From: an uncultured Desulfobulbaceae bacterium
GTDB taxonomy: Bacteria; Desulfobacterota; Desulfobulbia; Desulfobulbales; BM004
DNA: 64,000 bases
NCBI GenBank assembly: GCA_945787325.1
Contig: CALZHP010000004.1
Coordinates: 2,262 to 66,261 of the forward strand
Direction of reading: 5' to 3'
Shown: positions 5,178 to 49,881 of the stretch, piece after piece
Layout: every line of letters begins with the position of its first letter
Position numbering within the stretch: the stretch's first letter is position 1
Program-made: the position numbers and the translations under genes
Notes under the pieces: model-generated
Told to the model about the DNA's origin: nothing
Database searches by the model: none
What the model saw: only the letters and a program-made list of their open reading frames with translations

Positions 5178-5301
5178 GAATTGTAACATGCCGATTTGCC
5201 TGGATAATTCAAGATATGCATTTAGTTGACTAGCAAAATTGGAAATATTTCCGACACCCAGATACAAACCATGATTATTTGCTTCCTTCTATAATATTGT
5301 G

Positions 5302-5912: not shown

Positions 5913-5938
5913 ATATCTGTAATTCAAATTACAGATAT
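5913..5938. promoter_or_regulatory. perfect 12-bp inverted repeat, candidate enhancer (UAS) or operator
   Basis: ATATCTGTAATT-ca-AATTACAGATAT, located about 115-140 nt upstream of the sigma-54 promoter at 6051. Confidence 0.3.
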
Positions 5939-6050
5939 ATGAAAATAAAATGTCCGTGTTTTTTACAACAGCATTAAATGGTATGCTTTACACCTCGTCA
6001 TTAGCGTGATTACAGACTATTCAATAATTTTATTATCTCTTAATTGGAAA

Positions 6051-6066
6051 TGGCATAGTATATGCT
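6051..6066 (+). promoter_or_regulatory. sigma-54 (-24/-12) promoter of PEP-CTERM gene 3
   Basis: TGGCAT-agtat-ATGCT, with GG-N10-GC spacing preserved. It lies about 75 nt upstream of the ATG at 6142. Confidence 0.6.
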
Positions 6067-6141
6067 TAATAATGAACACATATATAATTTGAGATATTTT
6101 ATTTATGATATTGGTAAGCTAATAAAAATTTGGGGATACAG

Positions 6142-6762
6142 ATGAAGAAGGCAATGATTAGTTTAACTTCCATGTTTTTGGTAGTTGGCTTGATTGGAGT
6201 TGCAAATGCGACGTTGATCAATTTCGATTTTACCGGCGGTGACAATACATGGAATACAGACAGTGCAATTTTTACAGGTGATGACGGTTCAACAAGGACT
6301 CGAGCTACTGCTATTCCTTCCAGCAGTAGAAACCTTTATTTAGGTCAAGATGGTCTTGGTGTCTACGGTTTTCGTGACAGCGCTGAATATGATGATGCGC
6401 AAGTCGATGGATATCAAATTAATGAATGGATTAATTTTGACTTTCGTAGTCCTGTCAGATTGGTTTCAGCAAGTTTTAGTCATGTTGGCTCCAACGATGA
6501 TTTTGCCTTTTATGCCAATGGTAGATATTTCCAAAGTACAGACATCCCAAATAGTCATACATATACGTTCCAACAGACATGGATATCGAGTCGCTTTTGG
6601 ATCGGTGCAGTTGCTGATAACGATGATTTTTTCATATCAGGTATACAAATTGACGATGGTGCACATGGTGCCCCTGTTCCCGAACCAGCCACTATGATGC
6701 TGATGGGCACAGGTCTTGCCGGTCTAGCGTTCTCCCGTCGTAAAAAAGCAAATAAAGCGTAA
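6142..6762 (+). CDS. PEP-CTERM sorting-domain secreted protein 3
   Basis: Signal peptide MKKAMISLTSMFLVVGLIGVANA. The C-terminus is VPEPATMMLMGTGLAGLAFSRRKKANKA. The ORF-track start at 6130 is an upstream TTG. Confidence 0.9.
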   Translation: MKKAMISLTSMFLVVGLIGVANATLINFDFTGGDNTWNTDSAIFTGDDGSTRTRATAIPSSSRNLYLGQDGLGVYGFRDSAEYDDAQVDGYQINEWINFDFRSPVRLVSASFSHVGSNDDFAFYANGRYFQSTDIPNSHTYTFQQTWISSRFWIGAVADNDDFFISGIQIDDGAHGAPVPEPATMMLMGTGLAGLAFSRRKKANKA

Positions 6763-6813
6763 TGAATGAAATGAGTTGGCAATACTGAGATGACTTAAAT
6801 ATTCAAAGATAAA

Positions 6814-6847
6814 GCCTGAATCGGAGTAATCCGATTCAGGCTTTTTT
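6814..6847 (+). terminator. intrinsic terminator (paralogous to the one at 2201)
   Basis: GCCTGAATCGG-agtaat-CCGATTCAGGC followed by TTTTTT. Confidence 0.8.
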
Positions 6848-6967
6848 CATATATATTGTAAGATTTTTGGGATAGTCCAATCGATATTCAGCTTTGGGTA
6901 TGGTTGTGATCCGTTTTGTTCTCAAATTTAAAGGTGGCACGTGTGTCAAAATATTTTACACATCCCT

Positions 6968-7342
6968 TTATGTGTCTACCCTTTGCATAAATTCCTCAAG
7001 CTGAGACTTCTGAGCGGAGGTAAGTGAATCGAACTGTAATCCCCTCCGACGCATGGAGATATTGTCAATATTAAAGTGAATATCAGACGTGGTTTTTATC
7101 GGAACCTTCTCCAACCATATATTGTCATTAAGAAGAATGCTAAGTTCACTCACATTGTTAGCCAACTCTTGCTCACCAAGATATCGGAAAGCAAGACCGA
7201 CCTTGCTGATATCAACAACATGATAAAGGGCACCGGTTGTCTTTTGGCCTACTAAAACAAGAATACGCTTCTTTACAGACAAGCGTTTATGGGCCCTTCT
7301 TTCATTGATTTGTTTATTAGCTTCCACAATACCCCCCTTCAT
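6968..7342 (-). CDS. PilZ-domain protein (c-di-GMP receptor family), the intact copy
   Basis: Both PilZ motifs are present: an RxxxR-type ERRAHKR and DISKVGLAF (D/NxSxxG). Confidence 0.8.
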   Translation of the reverse strand: MKGGIVEANKQINERRAHKRLSVKKRILVLVGQKTTGALYHVVDISKVGLAFRYLGEQELANNVSELSILLNDNIWLEKVPIKTTSDIHFNIDNISMRRRGLQFDSLTSAQKSQLEEFMQRVDT

Positions 7343-7721
7343 ATCAGGAAATATGATGCATTCACAACAAACATTGTGCCCATCAACGGGGATTTATAAT
7401 ATTACATTATATCATCGGCACATTACTGCCCGCCCTATGCCTTTTATAATTGCCCGATTGAGATAGACACCCTTACAGGTTACTCTTTTCAGTACCCCAT
7501 AGAGGTATAAATATCGACTTCGAGTACCCATGGGTAATGCCCGCAAATTCCCTTTCTAAAAGTTTAGTTCCAACACCTCAAAACTTTTCATGCAATAATA
7601 TTGCCAGTCATTTATCAGGCTGATATTATTGAATATAACTTATCGAAAACTTAATTTAATTTATGAGGCATAATTCATGTGTAAATATTTCTGACACTAG
7701 TTAACGATTTAGATATAAATC

Positions 7722-8112
7722 GTTGGCGTAGAACGCAGGGCTTAGGGCGCAAGGTCTATAAAATGAAAATTGAATAAATAAATGGCGTAAGGCTTAAGGC
7801 ATAGGGCGTAAGGCAGAATATTGAATATTGAAAAATGAATAATTGGGAGTTAAAGGTGTAGTATCCTGATAACATTCCACTAATATTAGGTACATGCCAT
7901 TTTACAATTCCCCCCTAAACCCTATGCCTTTTATTTATTCAATATTGTCCGCCTCACGCAAAAACGCTCCGCCGAAAGGTATCAAGCCTATACAAAATTT
8001 AATCTCACTTGCCCCGTTAATAACAACGCAACTTTACGTTATTGTAGCAATCTGCAATTTTCAATATTCAATATTCAATTTTCATTATAAAGGCCCTACG
8101 CCATTTAATTAT
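7722..8112. repeat. mosaic of short dispersed repeat modules in both orientations
   Basis: Modules seen: AATATTGAATATTGAA (7817-7832) and its reverse complement (8060-8076); GGCGTA(A/G)GGC (7784, 7805) and its reverse complement GCCCTACGCC (8093); CCTATGCCTTTTA (7435, 7921); ATGAAAATTGAATA (7763) and its reverse complement (8075). Confidence 0.7.
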
Positions 8113-8119
8113 CCATTCT

Positions 8120-10201
8120 TCATTCGTCATTTACAGCCGGTATCTCTACCACAAACCTGGCACCGCCTTCTTCATTATTCCCCGCAGCAATATTGCAGCC
8201 CAGGCTTTCAATAAGCCCTCTCACCTGCCAAAGACCGATGCCGCTGCCCTTAGATTTGGAGGTTTTAAACGGTTCAAATAATCCATCCGGCAGAAGTTCG
8301 GACGGTATACCCGGCCCGTTATCTGTGATTTTAAGTTCTATTATTTCAGTTGTTTTCGGAGCTGCATGAATCCTAACCGAAGTTCCGGCGCCTCCTGCCT
8401 CCAGAGAATTGAGCAGGATATTCTCAAGGATACTTGAAAATATTTCCGGGTCAGTGGTTATCTTCGTTGTATATTTGCACTTCAGATCAACCGTCAGTTC
8501 AGGGAGTTTGCGACCAAGCTTGCCAATGCAGTCTTTCAAAAATTTGCAGAGGACTAATTCCTGCCATTCTGGTGTAATTTCTCCTTTAAGCGAATGCAGG
8601 CGGTTTTGCACTTTGGCCATTCTTTTCAAAGCATCGTCCATCGATTCCAGGAGATCCTGCTGAAACACGGGATTATTGATATGCGCCGGAGCGTTTTCCC
8701 GGGCAAGAGACAGCATGGTGGCCGCGTTTTTAATATCATGGAGGACATAAGCGGAGAGGTTTTCCCAGGCGGATTGCTCGCGGGTATGGGCCAGTTCTTC
8801 GGCCATCCGGGTGGCCAGAAGTGCAGAAGCAGCCTGGGAACCCAGGGCGGCTAGAAGATCGAAATCATCGTGCCCGTAGATTCCACCGGAAAACTCCGGG
8901 CCAAGCCCGATATAACCGACACATTGTTCACCAATTGCCAGGGGCACCAGCAGGACAATTCCAGATGTATCTAAAAACACATGCTCCAGCGTGGCTAATT
9001 CATTTACTGCTTTATCATAATTGGAATCAGCCACATAAAAATGATCGTTTTCTTTAAGATGCAGTACAAGTGGATTGTCAGGGTCCAGGTTAATGTTGGG
9101 CGTTTCGGCAAACCCTTGGTCCCTGAAGGGTTTGTACCCTTGCTGGGCATCTCCAAGCCAGATCTTGATATCAGTCGTATAGAGGCTGTCGGCCAATACC
9201 TGGCGCAATGCGGCGACAACACCTTTTTCACTCAATTCTCCCTGCAGAAGAGAAGAGAATGCAAGCCATTCATCCCTGTACTCGTATTTATTCACATAAA
9301 AATTGGTGCTGATAAAATATTTCACCCGATGACGCACTTTGCCTGATAGCGAAAATATTAAAATCAGCAGTATGCCAATGATAATCAGCAGCCACTGCAG
9401 AATAAAGGGCAGAGACAATCCATAAGCCCGTATTATGAAAGAGACAATACCCACAAAAAAGAGATATGCGCCAAAGACGAGCGGCGCAATTGTCGAATAC
9501 ACAACCTTACGAGATACAAATACCTTGCGATTAAGCAATCTATGGCGGACGATGCCATACACCATCATAGACCAGGCGATCAGTAAAATAACGGACAGCA
9601 ACTGAAAGTGGCGAGGTACCAGTCGCAGATAGGTAATCCGATAGGAAGATGACCAGGCAAAGGTGCCGCTTAAAAGAAAAAAGCCGATGACTACAAATTT
9701 ATACTCCCATCGTCCTTTTAAAGTCAGTGCCCTCCAGAAAGACTCCAGATACCAGGCCAATCTAAGGGCGGCGACAAGCAATAGCAAGGAAGAAAAATAC
9801 AACAGTCCGTATTGAGGGAGGATTATCATATCTTCAACACGGTCATACACCGGCTGGCTGTACACCCAGAAACCGCCCGTACCAAATACGACGGCCGCAA
9901 GTACAACAATTATCATAATAAAAAGATTCGGCTTCTGAGCAGCAGGATTAATAGTATATTGCATCCTGTATGCCATGATAATTATGAGCAGGGAATATAC
10001 ATTTTCAGAAAATACAAGGGAGGGAATCGACTGATCCTGCAGGTGAAAGGAGAAATAGACATATTCCCCGCCAAGCAGCGTTACACTCAATAAGATTCGC
10101 ACCAGCCCGAAGGAAAATTGACGTTCCGCTTCTTTCACCCTCAGATCAAGTAAACATGAAAGCAACAGCGTAAGATTCAGGATGTAAAAAAGTGCAGTCA
10201 T
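8120..10201 (-). CDS. prsK: PEP-CTERM-system-type sensor histidine kinase (PrsK-like)
   Basis: 693 aa. It has a roughly 300-aa polytopic N-terminal membrane domain, a central GAF-like region, an H-box (LHDIKNAATML) and HATPase motifs (LNSLEAG, DNGPGIP, GSGIGLW). The architecture and size match the PrsK family, recalled from memory. Confidence 0.8.
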   Translation of the reverse strand: MTALFYILNLTLLLSCLLDLRVKEAERQFSFGLVRILLSVTLLGGEYVYFSFHLQDQSIPSLVFSENVYSLLIIIMAYRMQYTINPAAQKPNLFIMIIVVLAAVVFGTGGFWVYSQPVYDRVEDMIILPQYGLLYFSSLLLLVAALRLAWYLESFWRALTLKGRWEYKFVVIGFFLLSGTFAWSSSYRITYLRLVPRHFQLLSVILLIAWSMMVYGIVRHRLLNRKVFVSRKVVYSTIAPLVFGAYLFFVGIVSFIIRAYGLSLPFILQWLLIIIGILLILIFSLSGKVRHRVKYFISTNFYVNKYEYRDEWLAFSSLLQGELSEKGVVAALRQVLADSLYTTDIKIWLGDAQQGYKPFRDQGFAETPNINLDPDNPLVLHLKENDHFYVADSNYDKAVNELATLEHVFLDTSGIVLLVPLAIGEQCVGYIGLGPEFSGGIYGHDDFDLLAALGSQAASALLATRMAEELAHTREQSAWENLSAYVLHDIKNAATMLSLARENAPAHINNPVFQQDLLESMDDALKRMAKVQNRLHSLKGEITPEWQELVLCKFLKDCIGKLGRKLPELTVDLKCKYTTKITTDPEIFSSILENILLNSLEAGGAGTSVRIHAAPKTTEIIELKITDNGPGIPSELLPDGLFEPFKTSKSKGSGIGLWQVRGLIESLGCNIAAGNNEEGGARFVVEIPAVNDE

Positions 10202-25614: not shown

Positions 25615-26292
25615 ATGGAAAAACCGATGGTGGAACTAGTCAAGGTCAGCAAAATATATCCACCGGATGTTGTTGCCCTCGAGAATGTTTCCATACTCAT
25701 AGAAAAAGGAGAGATGGTTTTTTTGACCGGAAAAAGCGGGGCCGGCAAAACAACACTCCTCAAACTTATATGTGGTCTGGAACAGCCAGACCAAGGCCTA
25801 ATTGAAGTTGCCGGCAAAGACCTAAGCCGCATCAGACCAAAAGACATGCCTTATATACGACAGAAAACAGGTATGGCTTACCAGGACTTCAAACTCCTGC
25901 CTGATCAAACAGTTGCACAGAATATTGCCATGCCAATGCAGGTTGTATTCAGATCTATACGCTCCATAAAAAACAGGGTCTCTGAGCTCCTCGAAAAATT
26001 GAAGCTGGATGGGAAACACGATACCCTGGCCTGTAATCTTTCAAGAGGAGAACAGCAGCGTGTTGCTCTTGCAAGAGCGGTAGCCAACCTGCCCCCACTC
26101 ATTCTTGCAGACGAGCCCACCGGCAATCTGGACGGTGCAACAACCAGGCTTGTTATGGAACTCCTTGAAGAATGCAATGATGCTGGTTCAACTATTATCC
26201 TGGCCACCCACGACAAGTCCATATACAGCAATACAGCTCACAGGGCCGTTCAAATACGAGATGGTTATTTCGTTCCAACGGAGAACAATTAA
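25615..26292 (+). CDS. ftsE: cell division ABC transporter ATP-binding protein FtsE
   Basis: GKSGAGKTT, LSRGEQQRV and ILADEPTG. Confidence 0.92.
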   Translation: MEKPMVELVKVSKIYPPDVVALENVSILIEKGEMVFLTGKSGAGKTTLLKLICGLEQPDQGLIEVAGKDLSRIRPKDMPYIRQKTGMAYQDFKLLPDQTVAQNIAMPMQVVFRSIRSIKNRVSELLEKLKLDGKHDTLACNLSRGEQQRVALARAVANLPPLILADEPTGNLDGATTRLVMELLEECNDAGSTIILATHDKSIYSNTAHRAVQIRDGYFVPTENN

Positions 26293-26299
26293 GCAAGAT

Positions 26300-27187
26300 A
26301 TGAAATTTTTTTCGTATATTCTATCACAAACAGGAAGAAATTTACTGCAGACTTGGGGATCACAGCTGATGACACTGCTGACTGTCGGTCTTTCGGTTCT
26401 TATTTTTTCTTTTTTTCTTCTCATTAATACGAACATCATTAAAGCAGGGGCAAAACTTGGTGACGACATACGCTTGATACTTTTCCTTGAAAAAGAGCCC
26501 GACCCTGCTATGACAGCACTGTATAGAAAAAAAATCACAGACTTTACCGATGTTAAAGAAATTAGATTTATCAGCCGTGATATGGCATATAAAAAACTTG
26601 CCGACCAACTTGGTAATGATAGTGATGTACTTGCGGATATGGGTTCCGACTTTCTCCCACCTTCGATAGAAGTTTATCCTAATATCGACCTTAAAGGTCT
26701 GTCTGAGATTAAACTTTTTTCAGAGTATCTTGAGAAACTGTCTGGAGTTGTAAAAGTGCAATATGGCCAGGAATGGATAGAACGTTTTCATTATTTCACT
26801 GAACTACTTCGAGTCATTATTATATTGAGCGGCGGCCTGCTTGTACTGACAACAATATTTATGGTTTCCTATACCATCAAACTTTCGGTTGTCGCGCGGC
26901 AGGCGGAACTGAAAATCCTTCGTCTTATTGGAGCTACAAACAGCTATATAAGCACCCCTTTTCTCGTAGAAGGATTTCTGCAGGGCCTTATAGGTGCTGC
27001 AATTGGGCTAACTTCGCTCTATTTTCTTTTTGATTGGATCAAAAAGAACTTTAACAATCCAGGTCTGTTCAATTTCTTTGAATTTTCTTACATACCAACA
27101 TCAACAACTTTGTTAATTCTTGCAGTGAGTGTTATTCTTTGCACCGGCGGCAGCATCGCAGCAATGCGAAAATATCTTCGTATCTGA
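26300..27187 (+). CDS. ftsX: cell division permease FtsX
   Basis: Four-TM permease with a periplasmic domain. The start is taken at ATG 26300, just after the ftsE stop. The ORF-track start at 26105 overlaps ftsE in another frame. Confidence 0.88.
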   Translation: MKFFSYILSQTGRNLLQTWGSQLMTLLTVGLSVLIFSFFLLINTNIIKAGAKLGDDIRLILFLEKEPDPAMTALYRKKITDFTDVKEIRFISRDMAYKKLADQLGNDSDVLADMGSDFLPPSIEVYPNIDLKGLSEIKLFSEYLEKLSGVVKVQYGQEWIERFHYFTELLRVIIILSGGLLVLTTIFMVSYTIKLSVVARQAELKILRLIGATNSYISTPFLVEGFLQGLIGAAIGLTSLYFLFDWIKKNFNNPGLFNFFEFSYIPTSTTLLILAVSVILCTGGSIAAMRKYLRI

Positions 27188-27189
27188 TA

Positions 27190-28809
27190 ATGAAATCAAG
27201 GTGTTTAAAACCATTCAGTTTCGATCGGGAGCAATTGTTACCAGTTAAGTGGACCTTAGGAACATTTATTCCTCTCCCTTACAGGAGCCATAAGTATCCC
27301 GGCACCAACATCATGCTAAATGTTGTGATCCTCGTATTTCTTTTCTCAATATTCAACGCGCCTTTCAGTTCTGCAGCAACAAGCGAAGAGATAAAAGATT
27401 CCGAAAATCAACAAAGTATCATCAAATTAAAATCCAAGAAATTTGATTCACTGATTAATAACAAAAAATCAGAGAAAAAGCGTACCATCAGGATCAAACC
27501 ACTGCTAAAGGAAGAGCAGGATAGTGAACCCGTTACCAATGATGTTAATGAAAAAAAGTCAACTTCAATCACTATCCGTCAGGCTGAACAAATTAAACCT
27601 GTGCAAGAAGAATCTCCTGAAAAGGTTGAGAATCTAAGTAGGAAAGAGTTGCTTGAACAACACCGTATAATCCTTAACAAAGCAGATGTTCTTAAAAAAG
27701 ATGACGTCATCAAATATGTAGGCTCTCAACTTGAGGAAATCAATATTCTTGCAGCAATTGAGAAAATTGATATGAAACTGGCCTCTCAGAGAGCGAGAAT
27801 TATATCTCTCCAGAATAAATACAAGAGCCAGGAGAAACTGCTTCAACAGAGACAGGAATTAATAGATAAAAAAAACAGTGAAAAAGAAAAGGTAAAACAA
27901 CATGTTAAAAAAAGGTTAAGCGCATACTACCATATGGGCGGCACCGGGGTCATGAACGTTATCTTTTCCACTGAATCATTTGCCGACCTTCTGGTTTTTG
28001 AAGAGTATTTTCACCATTTGCTGCTTTATGATCAAAATATAATTCGTTCTTACCTTGATAAAATAGATAAGCTGTCAAAAGCACAGGATTCGCTCATACT
28101 CGAGAGAAAAAAGCTTCCAGAACTGCTTGATCAACTTCAGGAGGAAAAAGAATTCCTGGCGACAACGTTCGATGAAAAATTGGCACTGTTAACAAAGGTT
28201 AAAACTGAAAAGAAACTATATCAGCAGGCCGTTTCAGAAATTGAAAAAGCGGCGGCCGATCTGGCTGTATCAATTGAAAAATTCAAGGAAGATACCCGGA
28301 AGCAAACCTTGGCTTCTTATCCTGATTCTACGGCAAACCAATCGACATCATCAGGAAAAACTAAAAAAGGTAAAACAATTGCCGCCTTCAAAGGTAAGCT
28401 AGATCCTCCTCTTTCTGGATTGGTGATAAAAAATTACGGAAAACATACCAATAAGAAATTCGGTATAAATACTTTTGAAAACGGTATTGATATCAAGGCC
28501 GAACAGGGTACGTTGATTAAGGCTGTTTTTGATGGAAGAATTGTCAATGCCGGTTACCTGCGTGGATATGGCAATATGATCATCATCGACCATGGACAGC
28601 GGTATTATTCCGTCATCTCCCGGGTTGGCACACTTTTACGAGAAGAAGGCGAATCAGTTATTGCCGGTGATACTATCGGCATCATGGGTGAAAATAAAAC
28701 TTTGCTTGGAGAAGGGCTGCATTTTGAGTTTCGTCACGGCTCGGAACCGCAGAATCCTCTGGCATGGCTGAATAAAAAGAAATTAATTGTACGAGCCAAG
28801 ACTAAATAA
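27190..28809 (+). CDS. envC: EnvC-like murein hydrolase activator (coiled coil plus degenerate LytM/M23 domain)
   Basis: Long coiled-coil region. The C-terminal LytM domain is GIDIKA..GYGNMIIIDHG..GLHFEFRH, and it lacks the first catalytic His. It follows ftsEX. The start could be ATG 27313 (MLNVVILVFLF signal). Confidence 0.8.
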   Translation: MKSRCLKPFSFDREQLLPVKWTLGTFIPLPYRSHKYPGTNIMLNVVILVFLFSIFNAPFSSAATSEEIKDSENQQSIIKLKSKKFDSLINNKKSEKKRTIRIKPLLKEEQDSEPVTNDVNEKKSTSITIRQAEQIKPVQEESPEKVENLSRKELLEQHRIILNKADVLKKDDVIKYVGSQLEEINILAAIEKIDMKLASQRARIISLQNKYKSQEKLLQQRQELIDKKNSEKEKVKQHVKKRLSAYYHMGGTGVMNVIFSTESFADLLVFEEYFHHLLLYDQNIIRSYLDKIDKLSKAQDSLILERKKLPELLDQLQEEKEFLATTFDEKLALLTKVKTEKKLYQQAVSEIEKAAADLAVSIEKFKEDTRKQTLASYPDSTANQSTSSGKTKKGKTIAAFKGKLDPPLSGLVIKNYGKHTNKKFGINTFENGIDIKAEQGTLIKAVFDGRIVNAGYLRGYGNMIIIDHGQRYYSVISRVGTLLREEGESVIAGDTIGIMGENKTLLGEGLHFEFRHGSEPQNPLAWLNKKKLIVRAKTK

Positions 28810-35589: not shown

Positions 35590-35955
35590 ATGATAAATGA
35601 TTATGCCGGGCACTACTTCAATACTGCTATTAGGAAGCAGCATCCCGTCAGAAGAAACTCATCATATAAGAAACTCCTCGGGGTTAACGGCACTTGGATG
35701 ATGTGGAAAAGTATTGGTGTAATGCTCGTAATGACTATGACAATAGGAATTACTTCCACTGTCTGGTTCGGCTGGCAGATTAAAAATTCACTCAGCAGTA
35801 TTGGCATTGAAAGAACGACTCAACACAACATCGTAACGGAAAACAATCAACTGGCTGCTAAGCGCGATCGGCTGCTGGTAAGAGAACAGATTGAAGCTGC
35901 GGCAAAAAAACTGGGCCTTGTTACTCCCACAGCACGTCAGCTTCGCAAACCGTAG
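35590..35955 (+). CDS. ftsL: cell division protein FtsL
   Basis: A single TM segment followed by a coiled coil, ending in QIEAAAKKLGLVTP. It sits in the conserved dcw position. Confidence 0.75.
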   Translation: MINDYAGHYFNTAIRKQHPVRRNSSYKKLLGVNGTWMMWKSIGVMLVMTMTIGITSTVWFGWQIKNSLSSIGIERTTQHNIVTENNQLAAKRDRLLVREQIEAAAKKLGLVTPTARQLRKP

Positions 35956-35966: not shown

Positions 35967-37913
35967 ATGAAATTCCGGCCTCATCGGCATAAACTGCCTG
36001 AGCTCAAAAGGAAACTTTTACTGGTAACCGGGTTAACTGTTTTCCTGGTTCTGGCCGGTATTTCTACAGCCTTCCTAAAGACACATCCTGACTCTTTGTC
36101 CGGTTTTATTAACCGGCAGGACCATCAACCGAAAAAAGAACTGAAAAACTACCGCGGCAAGATTTACGATAGGAACTTCAGGGAGTTAGCCGGCAGTTAT
36201 CAGACTTGTGCGGTTTACGCCCGCCCTTTAGAAATTGAGAATACAGAATTTGTTGCGGACCGCCTCACACAGACACTTGATCTGGATAAAGCTAAACTTC
36301 TGTCTGATCTTAAGTCAGAAAGGGGTTTCGTTTGGCTGATAGAAGCTCTTGACACTGAGAGTGCCTCAATTATATCAGATCTCAATTTGAAAGGAATTTA
36401 CGTAACAGACAAAACGAGACGGCTTTATTCGAACAACAAAACTGCAGCTCATATACTTGGTTTTACTGAAAACGAACAGGGATTGGATGGCGTTGAACTG
36501 CAATACAACAGTATTCTTAAAGGTGACACACTGCAGACAATTGATCTGCCTATGATTGAAGTTGAAGAAAATAACGGGCTCCCTAAAGGTGCTGAACTCA
36601 TATTAACACTGGATCTTAAAATCCAGAATATACTGGAGTCAAATCTCAGTAAAGTTATGAAAAAAAATGGTGCTACATCCGCCAAAGCAATAATTATGGA
36701 TCCGAACAACGGTGCCATTCTGGCAATGGCTAGCCTGCCTTCCTATGACCCCAACCGTTACTGGGAATACAGTGCTGGAGAAAGAAGTAATCGAGCAATA
36801 AATGAGCTTTTATTTACCAAAGGACTTGATGGTTTTATAAACAGCGTAATCCAAAAAGAAGCCATATTGAAGGAATTACCATCCAAGAAGAACCGAAAAG
36901 ATAAACCAAGTGAATATATAGTATTAGCTCCACGAAAAATTAAGAAAAAAATTACTGACAGAAGAGCTGCCTTTTATGCTGAGAATTTACAAGATAAGGT
37001 TGTCAGTTTTGCTGGAAACAGCAAATTCAATATTGATCTTCCAGCAGGTACAGATTCTTCTGACAGCAGTTACTCCACTTCTTTCTGGGTCGATACATTA
37101 AAACATTCATCCGCACTACAGCTTCTCTCAGATTTCGCTATCCTCATAAATAGCGGAAAAAATGTAGGCCCACACATGCTGGCCGGCATTCTGGACAAAT
37201 CGACCGGACAAACTCTGCAAACAAAATTCAGCAAATTGAATCGAACAATTTTAGACAATGAATCAGGGGAGTCTGCTTTAAACTTTATCACCGAACTTGG
37301 TACAGCCGGACCCAAAAAATCCTTTTTTTTGGAAGCCATTTTAGAACACGAGCCGGCCAAAACTTCACAAACTGAAGCAGATAGTCAAAATCAAAAAGTG
37401 AAAGATTTTCAAGAATCAAAATATAACAGTGTCATGTTGGCCGCCATTCCGTCAGAGAAGCCGGAACTAATTATGATTACAGCCTTTGATGGCTTAAATG
37501 TCCAGCGGAACAAAGGGGCCAAATTCAAATCACCTTCATTAAATATCGGTAAAAAAATATTACCGAAAGTTCTGCCTCTCAGCCAAACAAAAATTGTTTC
37601 AGCAAACCAGCCTGTTGGGGATATGGAGAACGCTGCGATTCTAGAAGCTTCTTTACACAAAATAAAAGCGAAACGAAAAGCTGGCAATAAATTAGTTCAA
37701 AAAGATAAGCCTGTTAACTTCAAAATGCCTGATGTTACAGGAAAAAGTTTACGCGGCGCCCTCCAGTCATTACAGCAGTATAGCTTGACAATTAACATTA
37801 ATGGTTCAGGAAAAATTACAGAACAATACCCCGAGGCCGGAACTACAACAGTGAGTGGGCAAAGTTGCAGTCTCAAACTGAAGACGCAAACGAAATTTCA
37901 GCCAGCACATTAA
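35967..37913 (+). CDS. ftsI: FtsI/PBP3-like protein with a degenerate (non-catalytic) transpeptidase domain and a C-terminal PASTA domain
   Basis: N-terminal TM anchor and PBP dimer domain (YRGKIYDRN, HILGF). IIMDPNNGAILAMASLPSYDPN aligns to the transpeptidase entry region. The SxxK position reads FTKGLDGF (nt 36813-36836) and the KTG position reads ELGTAG. PASTA domain: MPDVTGKSLRGALQSLQ. Confidence 0.8.
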   Translation: MKFRPHRHKLPELKRKLLLVTGLTVFLVLAGISTAFLKTHPDSLSGFINRQDHQPKKELKNYRGKIYDRNFRELAGSYQTCAVYARPLEIENTEFVADRLTQTLDLDKAKLLSDLKSERGFVWLIEALDTESASIISDLNLKGIYVTDKTRRLYSNNKTAAHILGFTENEQGLDGVELQYNSILKGDTLQTIDLPMIEVEENNGLPKGAELILTLDLKIQNILESNLSKVMKKNGATSAKAIIMDPNNGAILAMASLPSYDPNRYWEYSAGERSNRAINELLFTKGLDGFINSVIQKEAILKELPSKKNRKDKPSEYIVLAPRKIKKKITDRRAAFYAENLQDKVVSFAGNSKFNIDLPAGTDSSDSSYSTSFWVDTLKHSSALQLLSDFAILINSGKNVGPHMLAGILDKSTGQTLQTKFSKLNRTILDNESGESALNFITELGTAGPKKSFFLEAILEHEPAKTSQTEADSQNQKVKDFQESKYNSVMLAAIPSEKPELIMITAFDGLNVQRNKGAKFKSPSLNIGKKILPKVLPLSQTKIVSANQPVGDMENAAILEASLHKIKAKRKAGNKLVQKDKPVNFKMPDVTGKSLRGALQSLQQYSLTININGSGKITEQYPEAGTTTVSGQSCSLKLKTQTKFQPAH

Positions 37914-37944: not shown

Positions 37945-39582
37945 ATGACTGCACACTTGACAGATAGTTACCATAATACCCTCAAACATGTCCTGGATGG
38001 CATTCAACACCATCTGACTGCAAAGGAGGGGAATATAAGAATATCCGGTATTTCAATTGATTCTCGTAAAATTACATCTGGCAATATTTTTGTTGCTGTT
38101 TCCGGTAATAACGTTGACGGCCATATGTTTATTGAAAAAGCAATAAAAGCAGGCTGCAAAGCTATACTTGCGGATAGAGGAAAAGTCCCAAGAGGCGTTC
38201 GTAAAAAAACTGTTGTGGTTGAAGTAGAAAACACCCGAGCTGTTCTCGGGCACATTGCCTCTAATTTTTATAATCACCCAGCACGTTTAATGAAAATGAT
38301 TGGCATTACTGGAACCAACGGCAAGACAACTGTTTCGTACCTGATTGAATCAATTATCAGGGCCGGCGGTGGTAACCCTGGTGTAATTGGAACAGTTTCA
38401 TACCGCTATTCTGGCAGGAGCGGTAAAAATATTGAAATGCCGGCGGACTTCACTACTCCAGAAGCCCCTGATTTGCACAAACTTCTTAAGAAAATGTCTG
38501 ATAATGGTGTCAGCCATGTGGTTATGGAAGTTTCTTCACATGCTCTGGCTCAGCAACGAATTGAGGGGCTGAAATTTGACGTGGCCCTGTTTACCAACTT
38601 AAGCAGGGATCATCTCGATTTCCATAAGGATATGAACAGATATTACGACAGCAAAAAAAAGCTGTTTTGTGAATACTTGCACCCCAATGGACAGGCCATA
38701 GTCGTAATCGACAAAAACAAGGCGCAGCATAAAGGCCCTGACAGCATTCAGGATAATTCTACCAATTGGGGACATAAAATGGCTGCTGAGGTAGAGCATG
38801 AACTCTGCTCTCAAAGCAATAAAATTTCGGTCATGACATGTTGTCTTGACAAGGATTGCAGCATACATCCATCCAAATACAGTTTCACTCTTGCCGGCAC
38901 CAGTGCCGAGATAGTGAACCCGAAAGGATCTTTCCAGATTTACTCCGAGCTGACGGGTGAATTTAATCTGAGAAACATCCTTGCAGCTACAGGTGCAACA
39001 GCATCCCTGGGATATAAAAATACTGAAATATTTAAAGGCATTAGTGCTGTAAAAAATATTCCTGGCAGACTCGAAAAAATTCGTTCATCCAACCAAGCTA
39101 CCTTCTTTGTTGATTATGCACACACGCCAGATGCCATGGAAAATGTTCTTCAAACTCTAAAACAGCTGCAGTCCGGAAGGCTTATATGTGTGTTTGGATG
39201 CGGTGGAGACAGAGACCCGGGCAAAAGACCCATGATGGGGAAAATTGCAGGTGATTATTGTGATGTCGTACTGGCAACATCTGATAACCCCAGAACAGAA
39301 TCTCCCATAAAAATCCTCAATGAAATCGAAATAGGTCTTAAACGCTCGCATCTTGGCAGAAATCGTGCCGAAATCATTCTAACAGAGAATAAACGGCAAG
39401 GTTATGACATCATTCAGTCTCGGAGGGAAGCGATCGCTGTTGCTGTTCGCTACAGCCGTTCCGGTGACATTGTTCTGATTAGCGGTAAAGGTCACGAGTC
39501 ATATCAGATTACCATCACAGGAGTGAAGTATTTTGATGATCGTGAAGAAGTGAGAAAGCAAATGGGGGTAATACAATGGTAA
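37945..39582 (+). CDS. murE: UDP-MurNAc-tripeptide synthetase MurE
   Basis: GITGTNGKTT, DYAHTPDA and DNPR motifs. Confidence 0.93.
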   Translation: MTAHLTDSYHNTLKHVLDGIQHHLTAKEGNIRISGISIDSRKITSGNIFVAVSGNNVDGHMFIEKAIKAGCKAILADRGKVPRGVRKKTVVVEVENTRAVLGHIASNFYNHPARLMKMIGITGTNGKTTVSYLIESIIRAGGGNPGVIGTVSYRYSGRSGKNIEMPADFTTPEAPDLHKLLKKMSDNGVSHVVMEVSSHALAQQRIEGLKFDVALFTNLSRDHLDFHKDMNRYYDSKKKLFCEYLHPNGQAIVVIDKNKAQHKGPDSIQDNSTNWGHKMAAEVEHELCSQSNKISVMTCCLDKDCSIHPSKYSFTLAGTSAEIVNPKGSFQIYSELTGEFNLRNILAATGATASLGYKNTEIFKGISAVKNIPGRLEKIRSSNQATFFVDYAHTPDAMENVLQTLKQLQSGRLICVFGCGGDRDPGKRPMMGKIAGDYCDVVLATSDNPRTESPIKILNEIEIGLKRSHLGRNRAEIILTENKRQGYDIIQSRREAIAVAVRYSRSGDIVLISGKGHESYQITITGVKYFDDREEVRKQMGVIQW

Positions 39583-41042
39583 CCTGCGCATCGAACTCAG
39601 ACATTGACTGGACTCTCGACCAGGTTCTGCTTGCAACCGGGGGCAGATACATTGCAAGGAAGAATGCTAAACTTAGAAATGACGGCATGAGTGGTAGCTC
39701 GGTACATTTTCACTGTATTTCCACGGACTCACGTGCCATTCACCCAGGGGATATATTCCTGGGGCTTTCAGGTGAAAATTTCGACGGTGCCTCTTTTGCC
39801 CCGGATGCTGTCAAGAAAGGAGCAGCCGGGCTTATTTTAAACCAAGCCATTAATTCAGATATCGAGGAACCTACTCCCTCTATACCGGTAGTGGTTGTGA
39901 AGGATCCGCTCCTTGCGCTTGGCGATCTCGCAGCATACCGTCGTTCGCGAATGAAACACCTGAAAGTTGTCGCTATCACTGGAAGCTCTGGTAAGACCAC
40001 GGTCAAAGAAATGACCTCTTCCGTTGTCTCAAAAAAATTCAATATCGTTAAAACGCAAGGGAATTTCAACAACTTGGTCGGATTACCGCTTTCCTTGCTA
40101 CCTGTTAAAAGCCAACATGAAGTTGCAGTCCTGGAAATGGGGATGAACCAACCGGGTGAAATAGCACGGCTTACAGAAATCGCGGACCCTGATATTGCCT
40201 GCATCAATAACATACAGGAAGCCCATCTCGCTGGGCTCGGATCAATAAAGGGTGTTGCAAAAGCTAAGGGTGAGCTTTTTGCCGGCACAAAATCCTGGGG
40301 AACGCTTGTTGTTAATGTTGATGATCCACAGGTCCGAATTCTAGCGAGGAAATACCGGCACAGAAAAATCACCTTCGGCAGAAGAAAAGGTGCTGATATT
40401 CGGGCAACACATATCAGGGACAACGGTGAAAATGGCATGACTTTCACCCTTCATATCGGAAACAGACGCGTTCGCCTTCAGATCAAGGCTTTCGGAACTC
40501 ATAATGTAATGAACAGCCTTGCTGCAGCCGCAATAGCAAGTGGATTAGGAATTTCCATGTCAACAATCGTTAAAGGGCTTTCAACATTTAAGCCGTACGA
40601 CAAGCGTTCCCAAATTATTCATCTTGCATCGGGCCTGAAAGTCATAAACGACTCATATAATGCAAACCCTGCTTCAATGCAGGCTGCTCTGAGTGCTCTT
40701 CATAATCTGAAGCGAGAACGCAAAACCATGGCCGTTCTGGGTGATATGTTTGAACTTGGCGACAAGAGCAAAGACGCTCACAGTAAACTGGGGCAGGCCG
40801 CATTCGATTCCGGCGTTGATTACCTTGCAGCAACTGGTGAATATGCCGGGGATATTATTAAAACTGCCCTGCAGTCAGGTTTACCCAAAGAAAGAGCAAA
40901 AGTATTCAAGAATAAAAATGAAATATCGAAGTGGATAAAAAGACTTATAAAATCCGGAGATCTCCGACCAAATGATTGGCTGCTTATAAAAGGTTCCAGA
41001 GGAATGGAAATGGAAACCGTTCTTGAAGAGCTTAATAAATAA
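39576..41042 (+). CDS. murF: UDP-MurNAc-pentapeptide synthetase MurF
   Basis: ITGSSGKTT and NDSYNANP. It overlaps the murE stop by 7 nt. Confidence 0.93.
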
Positions 41043-43638: not shown

Positions 43639-43676
43639 GGACAAATCAACATCAATTACGAGAAAGGAGAAAAATT

Positions 43677-43877
43677 ATGACGAAGGCAAAATGCTGCATC
43701 TGTAAACAGGAAAAAGATATATTTGGCTGGGTATTGATGACACAACACAAAAGCCTGTCACTGGCATATTGTCCGGAATGTTATCAGGACAAAAAAGGAG
43801 ATGAGCAGGAGCAACTGGTCGATTGTTCAAACTTTATCGACGATACGAGTGATCTGCTTTTTTGCTTTAAAAGCTGA
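43677..43877 (+). CDS. mini zinc-ribbon protein, paralogue 1 (CxxC...CPxC), function unknown
   Basis: 66 aa reading KCCICKQEKDIFGW..LSLAYCPECY. A strong AAAGGAG RBS lies 8 nt upstream. No TM segment. Confidence 0.7.
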   Translation: MTKAKCCICKQEKDIFGWVLMTQHKSLSLAYCPECYQDKKGDEQEQLVDCSNFIDDTSDLLFCFKS

Positions 43878-43941
43878 TTCCAAAGATCCAGTATCAATTT
43901 TGCATCAGATTTTCAAATCACCAGCCTAGAGGAGGGGCAGC

Positions 43942-44160
43942 ATGAGTGTAAGAACTATTTGCTGTGTTTGCCGAAAAACAAAAGACCTAAACGGGTGGAT
44001 CGACAAATTTATTTCTCAATACAAAACGCTTTCTCATGGATATTGCCCGGAGTGTTATGAAGAAACTATCAAAAAAATTGATAAGGCAAAAGCAAAAGGA
44101 AAGCACAAACCAAATATCTCAGAAACTTTTGATATGACTGGTGAAGATTTTTTAAGTTAG
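43942..44160 (+). CDS. mini zinc-ribbon protein, paralogue 2 (CxxC...CPxC), function unknown
   Basis: 72 aa reading ICCVCRKTKDLNGW..LSHGYCPECY, with a Lys-rich tail. A strong GAGGAGG RBS precedes it. Confidence 0.7.
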   Translation: MSVRTICCVCRKTKDLNGWIDKFISQYKTLSHGYCPECYEETIKKIDKAKAKGKHKPNISETFDMTGEDFLS

Positions 44161-44263
44161 AGGCCATAATATTTCTGATGTTAGCTATTAATCATATAGC
44201 ATCATAGTAGTTATACTGTGCATATATAAGGAATTATTATTGTAAATTTACGAGTTACAAAAC

Positions 44264-46814: not shown

Positions 46815-47768
46815 GTGCCGTCACTGCAACATTTATCACAAGAGTTAACGCAGTTCTGGCAAGGTAAGATTTTATGGGATTTTCCCATGGCCCGATTCTC
46901 TACATTTAAGGTTGGCGGGCCTGCCGAAGCTGTACTCGTAGCTGAGAGCCAGGATGAGCTGGTCATGCTGGTACAATGGCTTCATAAAAACAAAATCCAC
47001 AGTTATGTTATCGGCAAGGGAAGCAATATTCTGGTGCCGGACACAGGATTGAAGGGCGCTGTAATAGTTCTTGGGAATAAATTTGCTTCCCTTGAAATAG
47101 AGCCGAATGATGATCAAGAAACGAAAAAATCTACTACACTGGTTAATGCTGGGGCAGCCTGCTTGCTTAATAAACTTGTAAAGTATTCAACTGAAAACAA
47201 TTTAAGCGGTTTGGAGTTTGCGGCAGGCATTCCAGGAAGTGTGGGCGGAGCAATAGTAATGAATGCAGGAGCATGGGGTGGTGAAATGAGTGATGCCATC
47301 CACTCTGTTACTTTTATGGACCCAGAAGGTATTATAATGAGTCCCGGGAAAGAGCAACTTCAATTTGCTTACAGAAAATGGGGCGGCAGCAAAAAAAGTA
47401 TTGTGCTGTCCGGTGTCTTTTCTTTAACAAAAGGAGAAAAAAATAAGATATCAGCAACCTGCAAGAAGTATCAAAAAGCTCGAAAAATTAAACAACCCCT
47501 GGGAATACCCAGTGCAGGTTCTTTTTTTAAAAACCCTCAGAGTCTGCCGGCAGGAAAACTTATTGAAGATGCAGGTTTGAAGGGTTTCAGTATTGGCGGA
47601 GCTATGGTCTCTCCAGTACATGCCAACTTCATTGTTAACACAGGGAAAGCCACTGCAGACGATGTTTTTGCCGTTATGCAGGAAGTACAGGATAAAGTTC
47701 TTCATAGCTCAGGTATCATGCTGGAACCGGAAGTCCATATTCTTGGAGAGGAGGGCTGTCAGGCATGA
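46815..47768 (+). CDS. murB: UDP-N-acetylenolpyruvoylglucosamine reductase MurB
   Basis: FAD-binding region FKVGGPAE, GKGSNIL and SAGSFFKNP. GTG start. Confidence 0.9.
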   Translation: MPSLQHLSQELTQFWQGKILWDFPMARFSTFKVGGPAEAVLVAESQDELVMLVQWLHKNKIHSYVIGKGSNILVPDTGLKGAVIVLGNKFASLEIEPNDDQETKKSTTLVNAGAACLLNKLVKYSTENNLSGLEFAAGIPGSVGGAIVMNAGAWGGEMSDAIHSVTFMDPEGIIMSPGKEQLQFAYRKWGGSKKSIVLSGVFSLTKGEKNKISATCKKYQKARKIKQPLGIPSAGSFFKNPQSLPAGKLIEDAGLKGFSIGGAMVSPVHANFIVNTGKATADDVFAVMQEVQDKVLHSSGIMLEPEVHILGEEGCQA

Positions 47769-48628
47769 AATCTTTCCGTTTAAGAAAAAGGCAGAAAACA
47801 TACAGGAGCTCATCTCGACCTACAGATTATAATACGAGAAAACGTACTAGAATCACGACATACTTTAATAAAAAACATATATTCCAGCTTCTGTCGATAT
47901 TGCTTCTGTTCTGTGTCGGAAGTGTTGCATCGATGGTTATATACCAGAAGCTCTGCAAGTCTGATTTTTTTAGAATAACAAACACATATATTAAAGGTTG
48001 TGAACATACAAACAAGACTGAAATACTTGAGCAGTCGGGTATTGACATACACACTAACCTGCTGGCCTTGGATGTATCAGCTGTTAAATCTAAGCTTGAA
48101 GAACACATTTGGGTGCACCACGTGGACATTTCACGGGTCTGGCCGAATCAGCTGAAATTTATTGTTTAAGAGAGAAAACCTTTGGCACTTCTCAACACCA
48201 GTAATGGGCTCTATTACATTGATAAATACGGCAAAAAAATAACTCATGTAAATATGCCCGGAGACCTTGATTTCCCTGTCATAACTGGTATAAATGAAAA
48301 CACTATGACTGCTCGGTCGAATGAGGTAAAATCCACTGTGCTTGACAACGCTCTCACCTTTTTACGATACGCAGGTCGCGGCAATCCAATATTACCGAAG
48401 CAGAACATTTCTGAAATCCATATTACAGAAAAAGGCGGTATGGTTCTTTATCTTCTGGATCACACTTTTCCCATTTATCTTGGACAGGAGAAAATAAGCG
48501 GTCAATACAACCGTCTCATCAAGGTCCTCAAGGGTCTGTATAAGAAAGATGAACTCTCAAATATTGCCTATATCGATATGGATTATCAGGAAGATAAAGT
48601 CCTGGTTGGCAAAACGAAATCTGGTTAA
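47765..48628 (+). pseudogene. ftsQ: ftsQ interrupted by a single in-frame TAA (48170-48172); otherwise full length
   Basis: The two ORF-track pieces (47765..48169 and 48182..48628) are in the same frame. The junction reads VWPNQLKFIV*ERKPLALL, which matches the conserved FtsQ POTRA motif WPxxL.I.V.ER.P.A. Confidence 0.75.
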
Positions 48629-48639: not shown

Positions 48640-49881
48640 ATGAAAGACATGAAAAACGAACAGCGTGGTAAAATAATAGTCGGACTTGATATTGGTACGA
48701 CAAAAATCTGTGCCGTGATCGGTGAAGTTCTAAATAGCGAAATAGATATTATCGGCATTGGTACACACCCATCTGTCGGCCTTAAGAAGGGTGTTGTTGT
48801 CAATATTGATAGTACAGTTAATTCAATCCGTGCCGCGATTGAAGAAGCGGAAGAGATGGCCGACTGCGTAGTCGACACTGTTTGTGTCGGCATCGCTGGG
48901 AGCCATATCAAAGGATTCAACAGCCCCGGTATAGTAGGCATAAAAAACCGGGAGATAAAGCAGGATGACATAGATCGCGTCATAGACGCTGCCCGTGCTG
49001 TAAATATCTCACAGAACCAGGAAATAATCCATGTTCTGCCGCAGGAATTCATGGTTGACGATCATACCGGCATACAGGATCCCCTCGGCATGACCGGTGT
49101 ACGGCTTGTCACCAACGTGCATATCGTCACAGGGGATGCCACTTCTGTACATAACCTTGTCATGTGTTGCAATCGAGCCGGTCTGAAAGTTGCGGATATA
49201 GTACTAGAATCACTTGCTTCGGCCAATTCAGTTCTTACAGTAGAAGACATGGAACTTGGCGTTGCTCTGCTCGAAATAGGCGGCGGCACCTCTGATCTTG
49301 CCATATTTTCCGGTGGGACTATCAAACACACTTTCGAGCTTGGTCTGGGAGGAAACAATCTGACTAACGACTTGTCAGTCGGTCTCAGAACTCCATTACA
49401 GGAAGCTGAAAAACTGAAAATTAATTACGGAAGTGCACTCACGTCAATGATAAACAAGGATCATACTATTGAAGTTCCCGCAGTTGGGGATCGTAAACCA
49501 AGAAAGTTGTCCAGGAAAATCATGGGGGAAATTCTGGAGCCGCGTATTGAGGAAATGCTGATCCTTATAAATCAGGAAATGATTGATTCATCTTATAAGG
49601 AAAGACTGACGGCTGGAATAGTAATAACAGGCGGTACAGCCCTGCTCAACAATATAGTTGACCTTGCAGAGCAGATCTTCGATCTTCCTGTACGTATAGG
49701 GTACCCTCACCATGTTGGGGGGCATACCAATACGATTGATTCACCACAGTTTGCAACCGGTGTTGGGCTGGTAATATATAACAGCAGAAATGTATCCGGC
49801 CGCAAATACCGTGTAAAAGATAAAAAAGTTTTTAACCGTTTCGGCGGTTGGATGAAAAACATATTTACCAATCATATGTAA
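48640..49881 (+). CDS. ftsA: cell division protein FtsA
   Basis: Actin-fold motifs GLDIGTTKICAVIGE and EIGGGTSDLAIF. Confidence 0.95.
   Translation: MKDMKNEQRGKIIVGLDIGTTKICAVIGEVLNSEIDIIGIGTHPSVGLKKGVVVNIDSTVNSIRAAIEEAEEMADCVVDTVCVGIAGSHIKGFNSPGIVGIKNREIKQDDIDRVIDAARAVNISQNQEIIHVLPQEFMVDDHTGIQDPLGMTGVRLVTNVHIVTGDATSVHNLVMCCNRAGLKVADIVLESLASANSVLTVEDMELGVALLEIGGGTSDLAIFSGGTIKHTFELGLGGNNLTNDLSVGLRTPLQEAEKLKINYGSALTSMINKDHTIEVPAVGDRKPRKLSRKIMGEILEPRIEEMLILINQEMIDSSYKERLTAGIVITGGTALLNNIVDLAEQIFDLPVRIGYPHHVGGHTNTIDSPQFATGVGLVIYNSRNVSGRKYRVKDKKVFNRFGGWMKNIFTNHM

What the first reader, a model, noticed from the sequence alone, without database searches (positions are those of the whole stretch)
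47765..48628. ftsQ carries a single in-frame TAA inside its most conserved POTRA motif
The two ORF-track pieces (47765..48169 and 48182..48628) are in the same frame and are separated only by TAA at 48170-48172. The read-through sequence VWPNQLKFIV-*-ERKPLALL matches the canonical FtsQ motif (WPxxL.I.V.ER.PvA), and the rest of the gene shows no decay. This could be a very recent nonsense mutation, a sequencing or assembly error, or a stop that is read through. The downstream piece has only a TTG and no obvious RBS, so independent translation of the periplasmic part looks unlikely.
Basis: seen in the sequence. Interest (0 to 1): 0.6.

Follow-up and report, generated by a model that had tools for sequence, protein, structure and literature searches.

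The report
One-base stop codon interrupting ftsQ
An otherwise normal cell-division gene (ftsQ) carries a single premature stop caused by one base change; it shows no sign of being a programmed signal and is most likely a sequencing or consensus artefact or a very young mutation.

Summary
The in-frame TAA is at 48167-48169, codon 135 of a 287-codon ftsQ (47765..48628, +). It lies between invariant residues of the POTRA motif but in a variable column.

The closest orthologue (75% identical, same length) has GAA (Glu) there, and all 12 related loci are intact. So this is one G->T change.

Nothing downstream has decayed. dN/dS is 0.20, and no window-specific change occurs at 51 conserved columns.

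TAA is the normal, commonest stop in this window, and TAAG is its commonest context. No RNA structure follows the stop. The downstream piece has no membrane anchor. No other gene in the window is split this way. Programmed read-through, code reassignment and a functional split gene are therefore all unsupported.

The sequence exists in public data only as one 67-kb NCBI contig, and every protein I looked up from it (four) is a singleton. Artefact versus genuine young nonsense allele cannot be settled without reads.

The finding is ordinary and of low interest. A side observation is more interesting: this Desulfobulbaceae-like clade lacks ftsW in the dcw cluster, and its FtsI-like protein has lost its catalytic motifs.

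The parts
47765..48628 (+). ftsQ, 287 sense codons in one frame, interrupted at codon 135. It lies between murB (46815..47768, ATGA start/stop overlap) and ftsA (48640..49881) in a dcw cluster.
   Evidence: POTRA_1 + FtsQ_DivIB_C; 151 FtsQ homologues, the best 75% identical over 287 aa.
47745..47755 (+). Strong Shine-Dalgarno (GGAGAGGAGGG) for the ftsQ start at ATG 47765.
   Evidence: -12.5 kcal/mol, the strongest among the 28 genes scored in the window.
47879..47944 (+). The single transmembrane segment (residues about 39-60, IFQLLSILLLFCVGSVASMVIY), preceded by a basic cytoplasmic tail.
   Evidence: Kyte-Doolittle 19-residue maximum of 2.39. It is the only TM-grade window in the protein.
47981..48175 (+). 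POTRA_1 domain (residues 73-137). The stop removes its last strand.
   Evidence: profile 5-69/69 in the joined protein, but only 4-63/69 in the N piece.
48167..48169 (+). Internal TAA, codon 135, followed by G (TAAG). The orthologous codon in the nearest relative is GAA (Glu).
   Evidence: Orthologue column is E/K/R/V/T/I/Y. It aligns to Asp in P. aeruginosa FtsQ (8bh1 family) and Val in the 2vh2 FtsQ chain.
48168..48184 (+). Weak SD-like AAGAGAG (48168-48174) followed by in-frame TTG (48182-48184). This is a possible but functionally pointless re-initiation site.
   Evidence: -5.4 kcal/mol, mid-range. (the C piece has no membrane or export segment).
48185..48580 (+). FtsQ_DivIB_C (beta) domain, residues 141-272, fully preserved downstream of the stop.
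   Evidence: omega 0.196; 49 of 51 conserved columns kept, and both departures are shared with the intact relative.
48626..48628 (+). The genuine ftsQ stop codon, also TAA.
   Evidence: TAA ends 38 of 60 ORFs in the window.

Best explanation
What it is. ftsQ here is an ordinary, selectively constrained FtsQ/DivIB gene. It encodes a cytoplasmic tail, one TM helix, a POTRA domain and a beta domain. Codon 135 reads TAA instead of a sense codon. The ancestral codon was most probably GAA (Glu), as in the nearest relative, so the lesion is a single G->T change at 48167.

Age and nature. The change is evolutionarily instantaneous, because nothing else in the gene has changed. It is not a programmed signal. 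It is not read-through, not recoding and not a functional split.

My committed reading. The T does not represent the organism's working gene. It is a base-call or consensus error, or a minority allele captured in a single uncorroborated assembly. On this reading the cell makes normal full-length FtsQ.

Shown: the single-codon lesion, intact relatives, absence of decay, ordinary stop usage and context, and uniqueness of the assembly.

Inferred: that the T is an artefact or minority allele rather than a fixed mutation. This rests on FtsQ being essential in model organisms and under purifying selection in this lineage.
For: - Nearest orthologue (P0001 / locus L043): 287 aa, no gaps, GAA at codon 135.
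- All 12 related Desulfobulbales-type loci have ftsQ with no in-frame stop.
- Downstream of the stop, omega is 0.196, against 0.13-0.19 upstream.
- The window sequence keeps 49 of 51 columns that are at least 80% conserved in 18 outgroup FtsQs. Both departures are shared with P0001. It is, if anything, slightly closer to the outgroups than the intact P0001 (0.516 vs 0.500).
- About 50 other genes in the window cover their family profiles end to end. No other gene is split by a lone stop.
- TAA is the main stop (38/60) and TAAG the commonest context.
- There is no structure after the stop (z = 0.47).
- The N piece, FtsA, FtsZ and FtsI are each singletons from one NCBI contig of 67,345 bp among about 15 billion proteins. 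No independent observation of the T exists.
- Errors fall on genes regardless of essentiality, whereas real nonsense alleles in FtsQ-like genes are strongly counter-selected (inference). FtsQ's C domain carries the FtsB-binding hot spot and the FtsQBL complex is essential in E. coli (PMC6695665).
- Conserved morphogenetic genes with premature stops or frameshifts do occur in deposited genomes (PMC12516126).
Against: - No reads or coverage are available, so an artefact cannot be shown.
- The window otherwise looks like a clean assembly. There are no frameshifts in about 50 kb of conserved coding sequence, so the per-base error rate is probably low.
- The genome does contain at least one genuine multi-lesion pseudogene (TIGR03790 family, 3120-~4000), so real gene inactivation happens in this organism.
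- This clade already has an atypical divisome, with no ftsW and a non-catalytic FtsI-like protein (PMC7873302). The assumption that FtsQ is indispensable is therefore borrowed from E. coli, not tested here.
Confidence: 0.48

Rival explanations
1. Genuine, very young nonsense allele. The sequenced cell or dominant population really has TAA at codon 135. It makes a 134-residue membrane-anchored stub (tail + TM + POTRA lacking its last strand) with no beta domain. That is a loss-of-function or severely hypomorphic ftsQ caught before any further decay.
For: - A single-lesion pattern is exactly what a brand-new pseudogene looks like.
- The assembly seems otherwise accurate.
- A real pseudogene exists 44 kb away.
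- The lineage's divisome is already reduced (PMC7873302).
- Public genomes do carry annotated pseudogenes in core morphogenetic genes (PMC12516126).
Against: - FtsQ is intact in all 12 relatives and under purifying selection (omega about 0.19).
- The missing beta domain is the part that binds FtsB in E. coli (PMC6695665).
- Such an allele should be lethal or strongly counter-selected (inference from E. coli genetics).
- There is only one assembly and no second observation.
Confidence: 0.38
2. Tolerated stop through low-level read-through. Near-cognate tRNAs (Glu, Lys, Gln, Tyr) occasionally decode UAA. Column 135 accepts many residues, so a trickle of functional full-length FtsQ would be made, enough for a low-abundance divisome protein.
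For: - Column 135 is variable (E/K/R/V/T/I/Y), so any near-cognate insertion should be harmless.
- The gene has the strongest SD in the window.
- FtsQ is a low-copy protein, about 300 per cell in E. coli (PMC6695665).
- The downstream sequence is perfectly preserved.
Against: - UAA shows the least read-through and is recognised by both RF1 and RF2 (PMC5289835).
- UAAG is the commonest normal stop context here.
- There is no downstream structure.
- The stop is not conserved in any relative.
- No tRNA (hence no suppressor tRNA) is found in the window.
- Typical basal UAA read-through (about 1e-4 to 1e-3, from my own knowledge) would give far less than one molecule per cell at normal expression.
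Confidence: 0.07
3. Functional split gene. Termination at TAA is followed by re-initiation at TTG 48182, giving two polypeptides that together replace FtsQ.
For: The SD-like AAGAGAG lies 7 nt before an in-frame TTG and 12 nt after the stop, with mid-range pairing energy.
Against: - The C piece has no TM or signal segment (maximum hydropathy 0.54, against 2.39 for the real TM), so it would stay in the cytoplasm, away from its periplasmic partners.
- The cut falls inside the POTRA domain, not between domains.
- No relative is split.
- None of the 120 listed homologues is a stand-alone half with matching boundaries.
Confidence: 0.02
4. Altered genetic code, or special decoding of TAA in this organism.
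For: None found.
Against: - TAA terminates 38 of 60 ORFs in the window, including ftsQ itself and most dcw genes. These proteins end where their family profiles end.
- ftsQ is the only gene with an internal TAA.
Confidence: 0.01

Closest known systems
FtsQ/DivIB family (Pfam POTRA_1 PF08478 + FtsQ_DivIB_C PF03799), e.g. FtsQ in the P. aeruginosa divisome complex (8bh1) and the FtsQ periplasmic domain (2vh2)
   Same: - Domain order, single N-terminal TM and length (287 aa).
- Position between murB and ftsA in the dcw cluster.
- The conserved WPN..L....ER.P.A motif.
   Different: The reading frame is interrupted by TAA at codon 135. All relatives examined are uninterrupted.
Young single-lesion pseudogenes, or annotation-level 'internal stop' pseudogenes in core morphogenetic genes of deposited genomes (e.g. 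ftsI and murE in Streptomyces abyssalis, PMC12516126)
   Same: A highly conserved cell-envelope or division gene carries a premature stop in a public assembly, with the neighbouring genes intact.
   Different: Here there is a single assembly, no reads and no second strain. A real lesion and an artefact therefore cannot be separated. No additional lesions are present, unlike the TIGR03790 pseudogene in the same window.
Programmed stop-codon read-through and natural nonsense suppression
   Same: An in-frame stop is followed by conserved coding sequence in the same frame.
   Different: - The stop is UAA rather than the leakier UGA or UAG.
- The context is the ordinary one.
- There is no downstream structure.
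- The stop is not conserved in relatives (PMC5289835).

Membership tests
FtsQ/DivIB cell-division protein | POTRA_1 domain followed by an FtsQ_DivIB_C (beta) domain | tested here: met
   PF08478 at 1.2e-14 (5-69/69) and PF03799 at 3.2e-10 (1-113/114) in the joined translation.
FtsQ/DivIB cell-division protein | Bitopic topology: short cytoplasmic tail, one TM helix, the rest periplasmic | tested here: met
   a single TM-grade window at residues 39-60. The tail is basic.
FtsQ/DivIB cell-division protein | Encoded in the dcw cluster immediately upstream of ftsA-ftsZ | tested here: met
   murC-murB-ftsQ-ftsA-ftsZ, the same order as in 8 relatives.
FtsQ/DivIB cell-division protein | Uninterrupted open reading frame giving one polypeptide | tested here: not met
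   TAA at 48167-48169. The gene belongs to the family by descent. Whether a full-length protein is made is unknown.
Programmed stop-codon read-through | The stop codon is conserved at the same position in related genomes | tested here: not met
   sense codons in all relatives, GAA in the nearest.
Programmed stop-codon read-through | Leaky stop and context (UGA or UAG, unfavourable +4 base) and/or a stimulatory downstream RNA structure | tested here: not met
   UAA-G is the commonest genuine stop context in the window. Fold z-score is 0.47. UAA is the least leaky stop (PMC5289835).
Programmed stop-codon read-through | Full-length product detectable | not testable with these tools
   Needs proteomics or a reporter assay.
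Decaying pseudogene | Disrupted reading frame | tested here: met
Decaying pseudogene | Relaxed constraint: extra lesions, raised dN/dS, loss of conserved residues | tested here: not met
   (omega 0.196 downstream). (no window-specific loss at 51 conserved columns). No second stop or frameshift.
Sequencing or assembly artefact | The variant is absent or mixed in raw reads, or absent from independent assemblies of the same organism | not testable with these tools
   No reads are available. The organism is represented by one contig only.
Stop-codon reassignment | The codon is not used as a terminator and occurs in-frame in many genes | tested here: not met

The most novel reading that the evidence does not exclude
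The TAA is genuine, and the organism lives and divides with it. One route is that trace near-cognate decoding of UAA at a residue-tolerant column supplies the few FtsQ molecules needed. The other is that, in a clade with no FtsW and an FtsI-like protein stripped of its catalytic motifs, the FtsQ beta domain has become dispensable, and this genome records the first step of its loss.
Probability: 0.08. Interest if true: 0.6.

Novelty: already known. Interest (0 to 1): 0.15.

Why it matters
As it stands, the finding matters mainly for annotation. The locus should be flagged as ftsQ with an internal stop pending read-level verification. It should not be called as two genes or as a recoding event.

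If the stop proved genuine and fixed, it would be a natural experiment on FtsQ dispensability in a lineage whose septal peptidoglycan machinery is already unusual.

The side observation may be the more useful lead for cell-division biology. This is a Desulfobulbaceae-type clade whose dcw cluster lacks ftsW and encodes an FtsI homologue without the SxxK, SxN and KTG motifs.

Tried and rejected
Searches for an independent copy of the same organism:
- Exact-sequence look-ups of the N piece, FtsA, MurB, FtsZ, MraY and FtsI all returned nothing.
- The cluster look-up showed that the N piece, FtsA, FtsZ and FtsI are singletons from one 67,345-bp NCBI contig. Exact MurC is not in the collection.
- The metagenome scan with FtsQ gave only a distant 34% hit.
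- The genome scan with FtsA gave relatives at no more than 83% identity.

Tests for special decoding or structure:
- Rfam and tRNA scans of the whole window were empty, so there is no suppressor tRNA and no known RNA element.
- The RNA fold downstream of the stop was no better than shuffles.
- The promoter/terminator scan around the gene was at chance level.

Readings considered and rejected:
- Frameshift or hopping bypass. The conserved protein continues in frame 0 immediately on both sides of codon 135 (V134, E136), so only the stop codon itself needs explaining.
- Selenocysteine or pyrrolysine. These use UGA and UAG, not UAA (established knowledge).
- A general decay of the dcw region. The overlapping ORF pairs elsewhere turned out to be separate intact genes (fabD/lspA/ileS, ftsE/ftsX/M23, a radical-SAM protein gene / a histidine-kinase gene).
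- ftsW loss as a lesion specific to this genome. It is lineage-wide (PMC7873302).

Full report
**1. The observation**

The region 47765..48628 (+) is one reading frame of 287 sense codons interrupted once. The interrupting codon is TAA at 48167-48169, codon 135. The ORF list gives 47765..48169 (134 aa plus stop) and 48182..48628 (a TTG start).

Pfam places POTRA_1 on the N piece, truncated at profile position 63 of 69. It places FtsQ_DivIB_C on the C piece from profile position 1. The joined translation restores POTRA_1 to 5-69/69, followed directly by the C domain. This is therefore one ftsQ gene with a single in-frame stop, not two genes.

The gene sits in a dcw cluster. The order is mraZ, rsmH, a small ORF, an ftsI-like gene, murE, murF, mraY, murD, murG, murC, murB, ftsQ, ftsA, ftsZ. 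A scan for all places where a lone stop separates two open stretches of at least 80 codons found ftsQ as the only split gene. The other cases are adjacent genes in the same frame or antisense shadow ORFs.

**2. What relatives show**

A search of about 5.8 billion proteins found 151 FtsQ homologues. The best (P0001) is 75% identical, also 287 aa and uninterrupted. The rest are 53% identical or less and come from Desulfobacterales/Desulfobulbaceae-type metagenome bins.

In the alignment the stop lies inside the conserved block W126-P127-N128 ... E136 ... P139. A141. Its own column is variable (E, K, R, V, T, I, Y). The contig carrying P0001 aligns codon for codon without gaps and has GAA at codon 135, against TAA in the window. 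That is one G->T change.

FtsA-anchored loci from 185,579 species genomes gave relatives with FtsA 77-83% identical. tblastn of the joined FtsQ against all loci found no in-frame stop in any of the 12 related ftsQ genes. Against solved structures, codon 135 aligns to Asp in P. aeruginosa FtsQ and Val in the 2vh2 FtsQ chain, in the strand just before the conserved Glu.

**3. Has the gene decayed?**

No.
- Nei-Gojobori estimates against the nearest relative give omega = 0.196 for codons 136-287. The values are 0.13 for codons 41-134 and 0.19 for the tail.
- In a relative-rate check against 18 more distant FtsQs, the window keeps 49 of 51 columns that are at least 80% conserved downstream of the stop. 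Both departures are shared with the intact P0001.
- Its mean identity to the outgroups downstream (0.516) is slightly higher than that of P0001 (0.500).
- There is no second stop and no frameshift.

The stop is therefore either extremely recent, not real, or harmless.

**4. Is it a programmed or tolerated stop?**

The evidence is against this.
- TAA ends 38 of 60 ORFs in the window, including ftsQ itself and most dcw genes.
- TAAG is the commonest genuine context among 28 well-supported genes.
- UAA is recognised by both release factors and shows the least read-through (PMC5289835).
- The 121 nt spanning the stop fold no better than shuffled sequence (z = 0.47).
- No tRNA and no Rfam family occur in the window.
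- The stop is not conserved in any relative.

Frameshifting or hopping is unnecessary and unsupported, because the conserved protein continues in the same frame on both sides.

A split gene is implausible. A weak SD-like AAGAGAG lies 7 nt before TTG 48182 (-5.4 kcal/mol, mid-range). However, the C piece has no hydrophobic segment (maximum 0.54, against 2.39 for the TM at residues 39-60). It could not reach the periplasm, where the FtsQ beta domain meets FtsB (PMC6695665). The cut also falls inside POTRA rather than between domains.

**5. Artefact or real allele?**

This cannot be decided here. Every attempt to find the same organism elsewhere failed. The cluster look-up shows that the 134-aa N piece, FtsA, FtsZ and FtsI are each singletons seen on one NCBI contig of 67,345 bp.

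The window otherwise looks clean. About 50 genes cover their family profiles end to end. It also contains one genuine pseudogene, a TIGR03790-family gene at 3120-~4000. That gene has a frameshift, in-frame stops and, judging by eye from the three-frame translation, an apparent internal deletion.

Errors fall on genes regardless of their importance. Real nonsense alleles in a constrained and probably essential division gene should be rare. On the other hand, real pseudogenes outnumber consensus errors in good assemblies. I put an artefact or minority allele at about 0.48, a genuine young loss-of-function allele at about 0.38, and tolerated read-through at about 0.07. That it is a single new base change and not a programmed feature I hold at about 0.9.

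**6. Context worth recording**

In seven relatives the order is mraY-murD-murG-murC-murB-ftsQ-ftsA-ftsZ, with no ftsW (an eighth, truncated locus shows only murG-murC-murB-ftsQ-ftsA-ftsZ). The literature reports ftsW as absent from Desulfobulbus and cable-bacteria genomes (PMC7873302).

The ftsI-like gene (35967..37913) and its relatives match class B PBP models only up to the start of the transpeptidase domain. The catalytic Ser of SxxK aligns to Glu in relatives (PGELA against PGSTV/PGSTFK). The SxN and KTG regions are missing or replaced, and all 44 PDB PBP alignments stop at that point.

The lineage's septal machinery is therefore atypical. This slightly weakens the E. coli-based assumption that FtsQ must be indispensable. 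Even so, FtsQ itself is intact and constrained in every relative.

**7. Verdict**

This is an ordinary single-base nonsense lesion in an otherwise normal ftsQ, seen in a single uncorroborated assembly. Interest is low. The locus should be annotated as ftsQ (internal stop) and checked against reads.

Noticed in passing
window 35967..37913 (+); relatives P0122-P0174: The dcw-encoded FtsI-like class B PBP (648 aa, with a C-terminal PASTA domain) matches PBP models only up to the start of the transpeptidase domain. In relatives the SxxK serine aligns to Glu (PGELA against PGSTFK). The SxN and KTG regions are absent or replaced. All 44 PDB PBP alignments end at that point. This looks like a lineage-wide non-catalytic 'pseudo-transpeptidase'. 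The window protein is only 30-37% identical to the aligned Desulfobulbales-type relatives (26% to the SpoVD outgroup P0183), although FtsA is 77-83% identical.
   Followed up: partly
window 43639..44263; loci L001-L004, L006, L009, L010: There is no ftsW between murD and murG in the window or in 7 relatives. This agrees with the reported absence of ftsW in Desulfobulbaceae (PMC7873302). Only the window has a 626-bp insert here. It carries two paralogous small Cys-rich ORFs (43677..43877 and 43942..44160; CCxC...CPEC motif, 45% identical). They have no NCBIfam hit (Pfam was run only on the second, with no hit) and no tblastn match in the relatives.
   Followed up: partly
window 3120..~4000 (+): A multi-lesion pseudogene of the TIGR03790 family, next to PEP-CTERM-type proteins. 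It has a frameshift in an A-rich run near 3360-3425, in-frame stops (around 3614 and later) and further frame changes. Judging by eye from the translations, about 100 codons appear to be missing. The stitched translation matches the profile at 2-166/316 with E = 6e-30.
   Followed up: partly
window 48212..48514 (ftsQ codons 150-250) vs L043: Synonymous divergence from the nearest relative dips to 0.24-0.34 in the distal half of ftsQ. It is about 0.8-1.7 in the proximal half and 1.0 in ftsA. This could reflect nucleotide-level constraint, such as internal promoters for ftsA/ftsZ, or a recombination tract.
   Followed up: no
window 35590..35955 (+): A 121-aa ORF lies between rsmH and the ftsI-like gene. 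It has one hydrophobic segment and a charged, helical-looking C-terminal part, which is the position and shape of FtsL. It has no NCBIfam hit (Pfam not run on it). The literature says ftsL seems absent from many Desulfobulbaceae genomes (PMC7873302).
   Followed up: no
window 1..8200: A region of low coding density. It holds three proteins whose C-terminal VPEP..(hydrophobic)..RR(R)KK tails look PEP-CTERM-like by eye (1547..2149, 4365..5093 on the minus strand, 6130..6762; no family search was run on them). It also holds a sigma-54 activator fragment at the window edge and a large membrane histidine kinase at 8120..10201.
   Followed up: no
L001 76..3045: The relative L001 has a single 989-aa ORF where the window has separate, overlapping murE (37945..39582) and murF (39576..41042). 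This may be a murE-murF fusion in the relative. It was not verified.
   Followed up: no
window 25615..28809 (+): An intact ftsE-ftsX operon followed by a 556-aa M23 peptidase / EnvC-like protein with a coiled-coil region. The rest of the division toolkit in the window appears undamaged.
   Followed up: no
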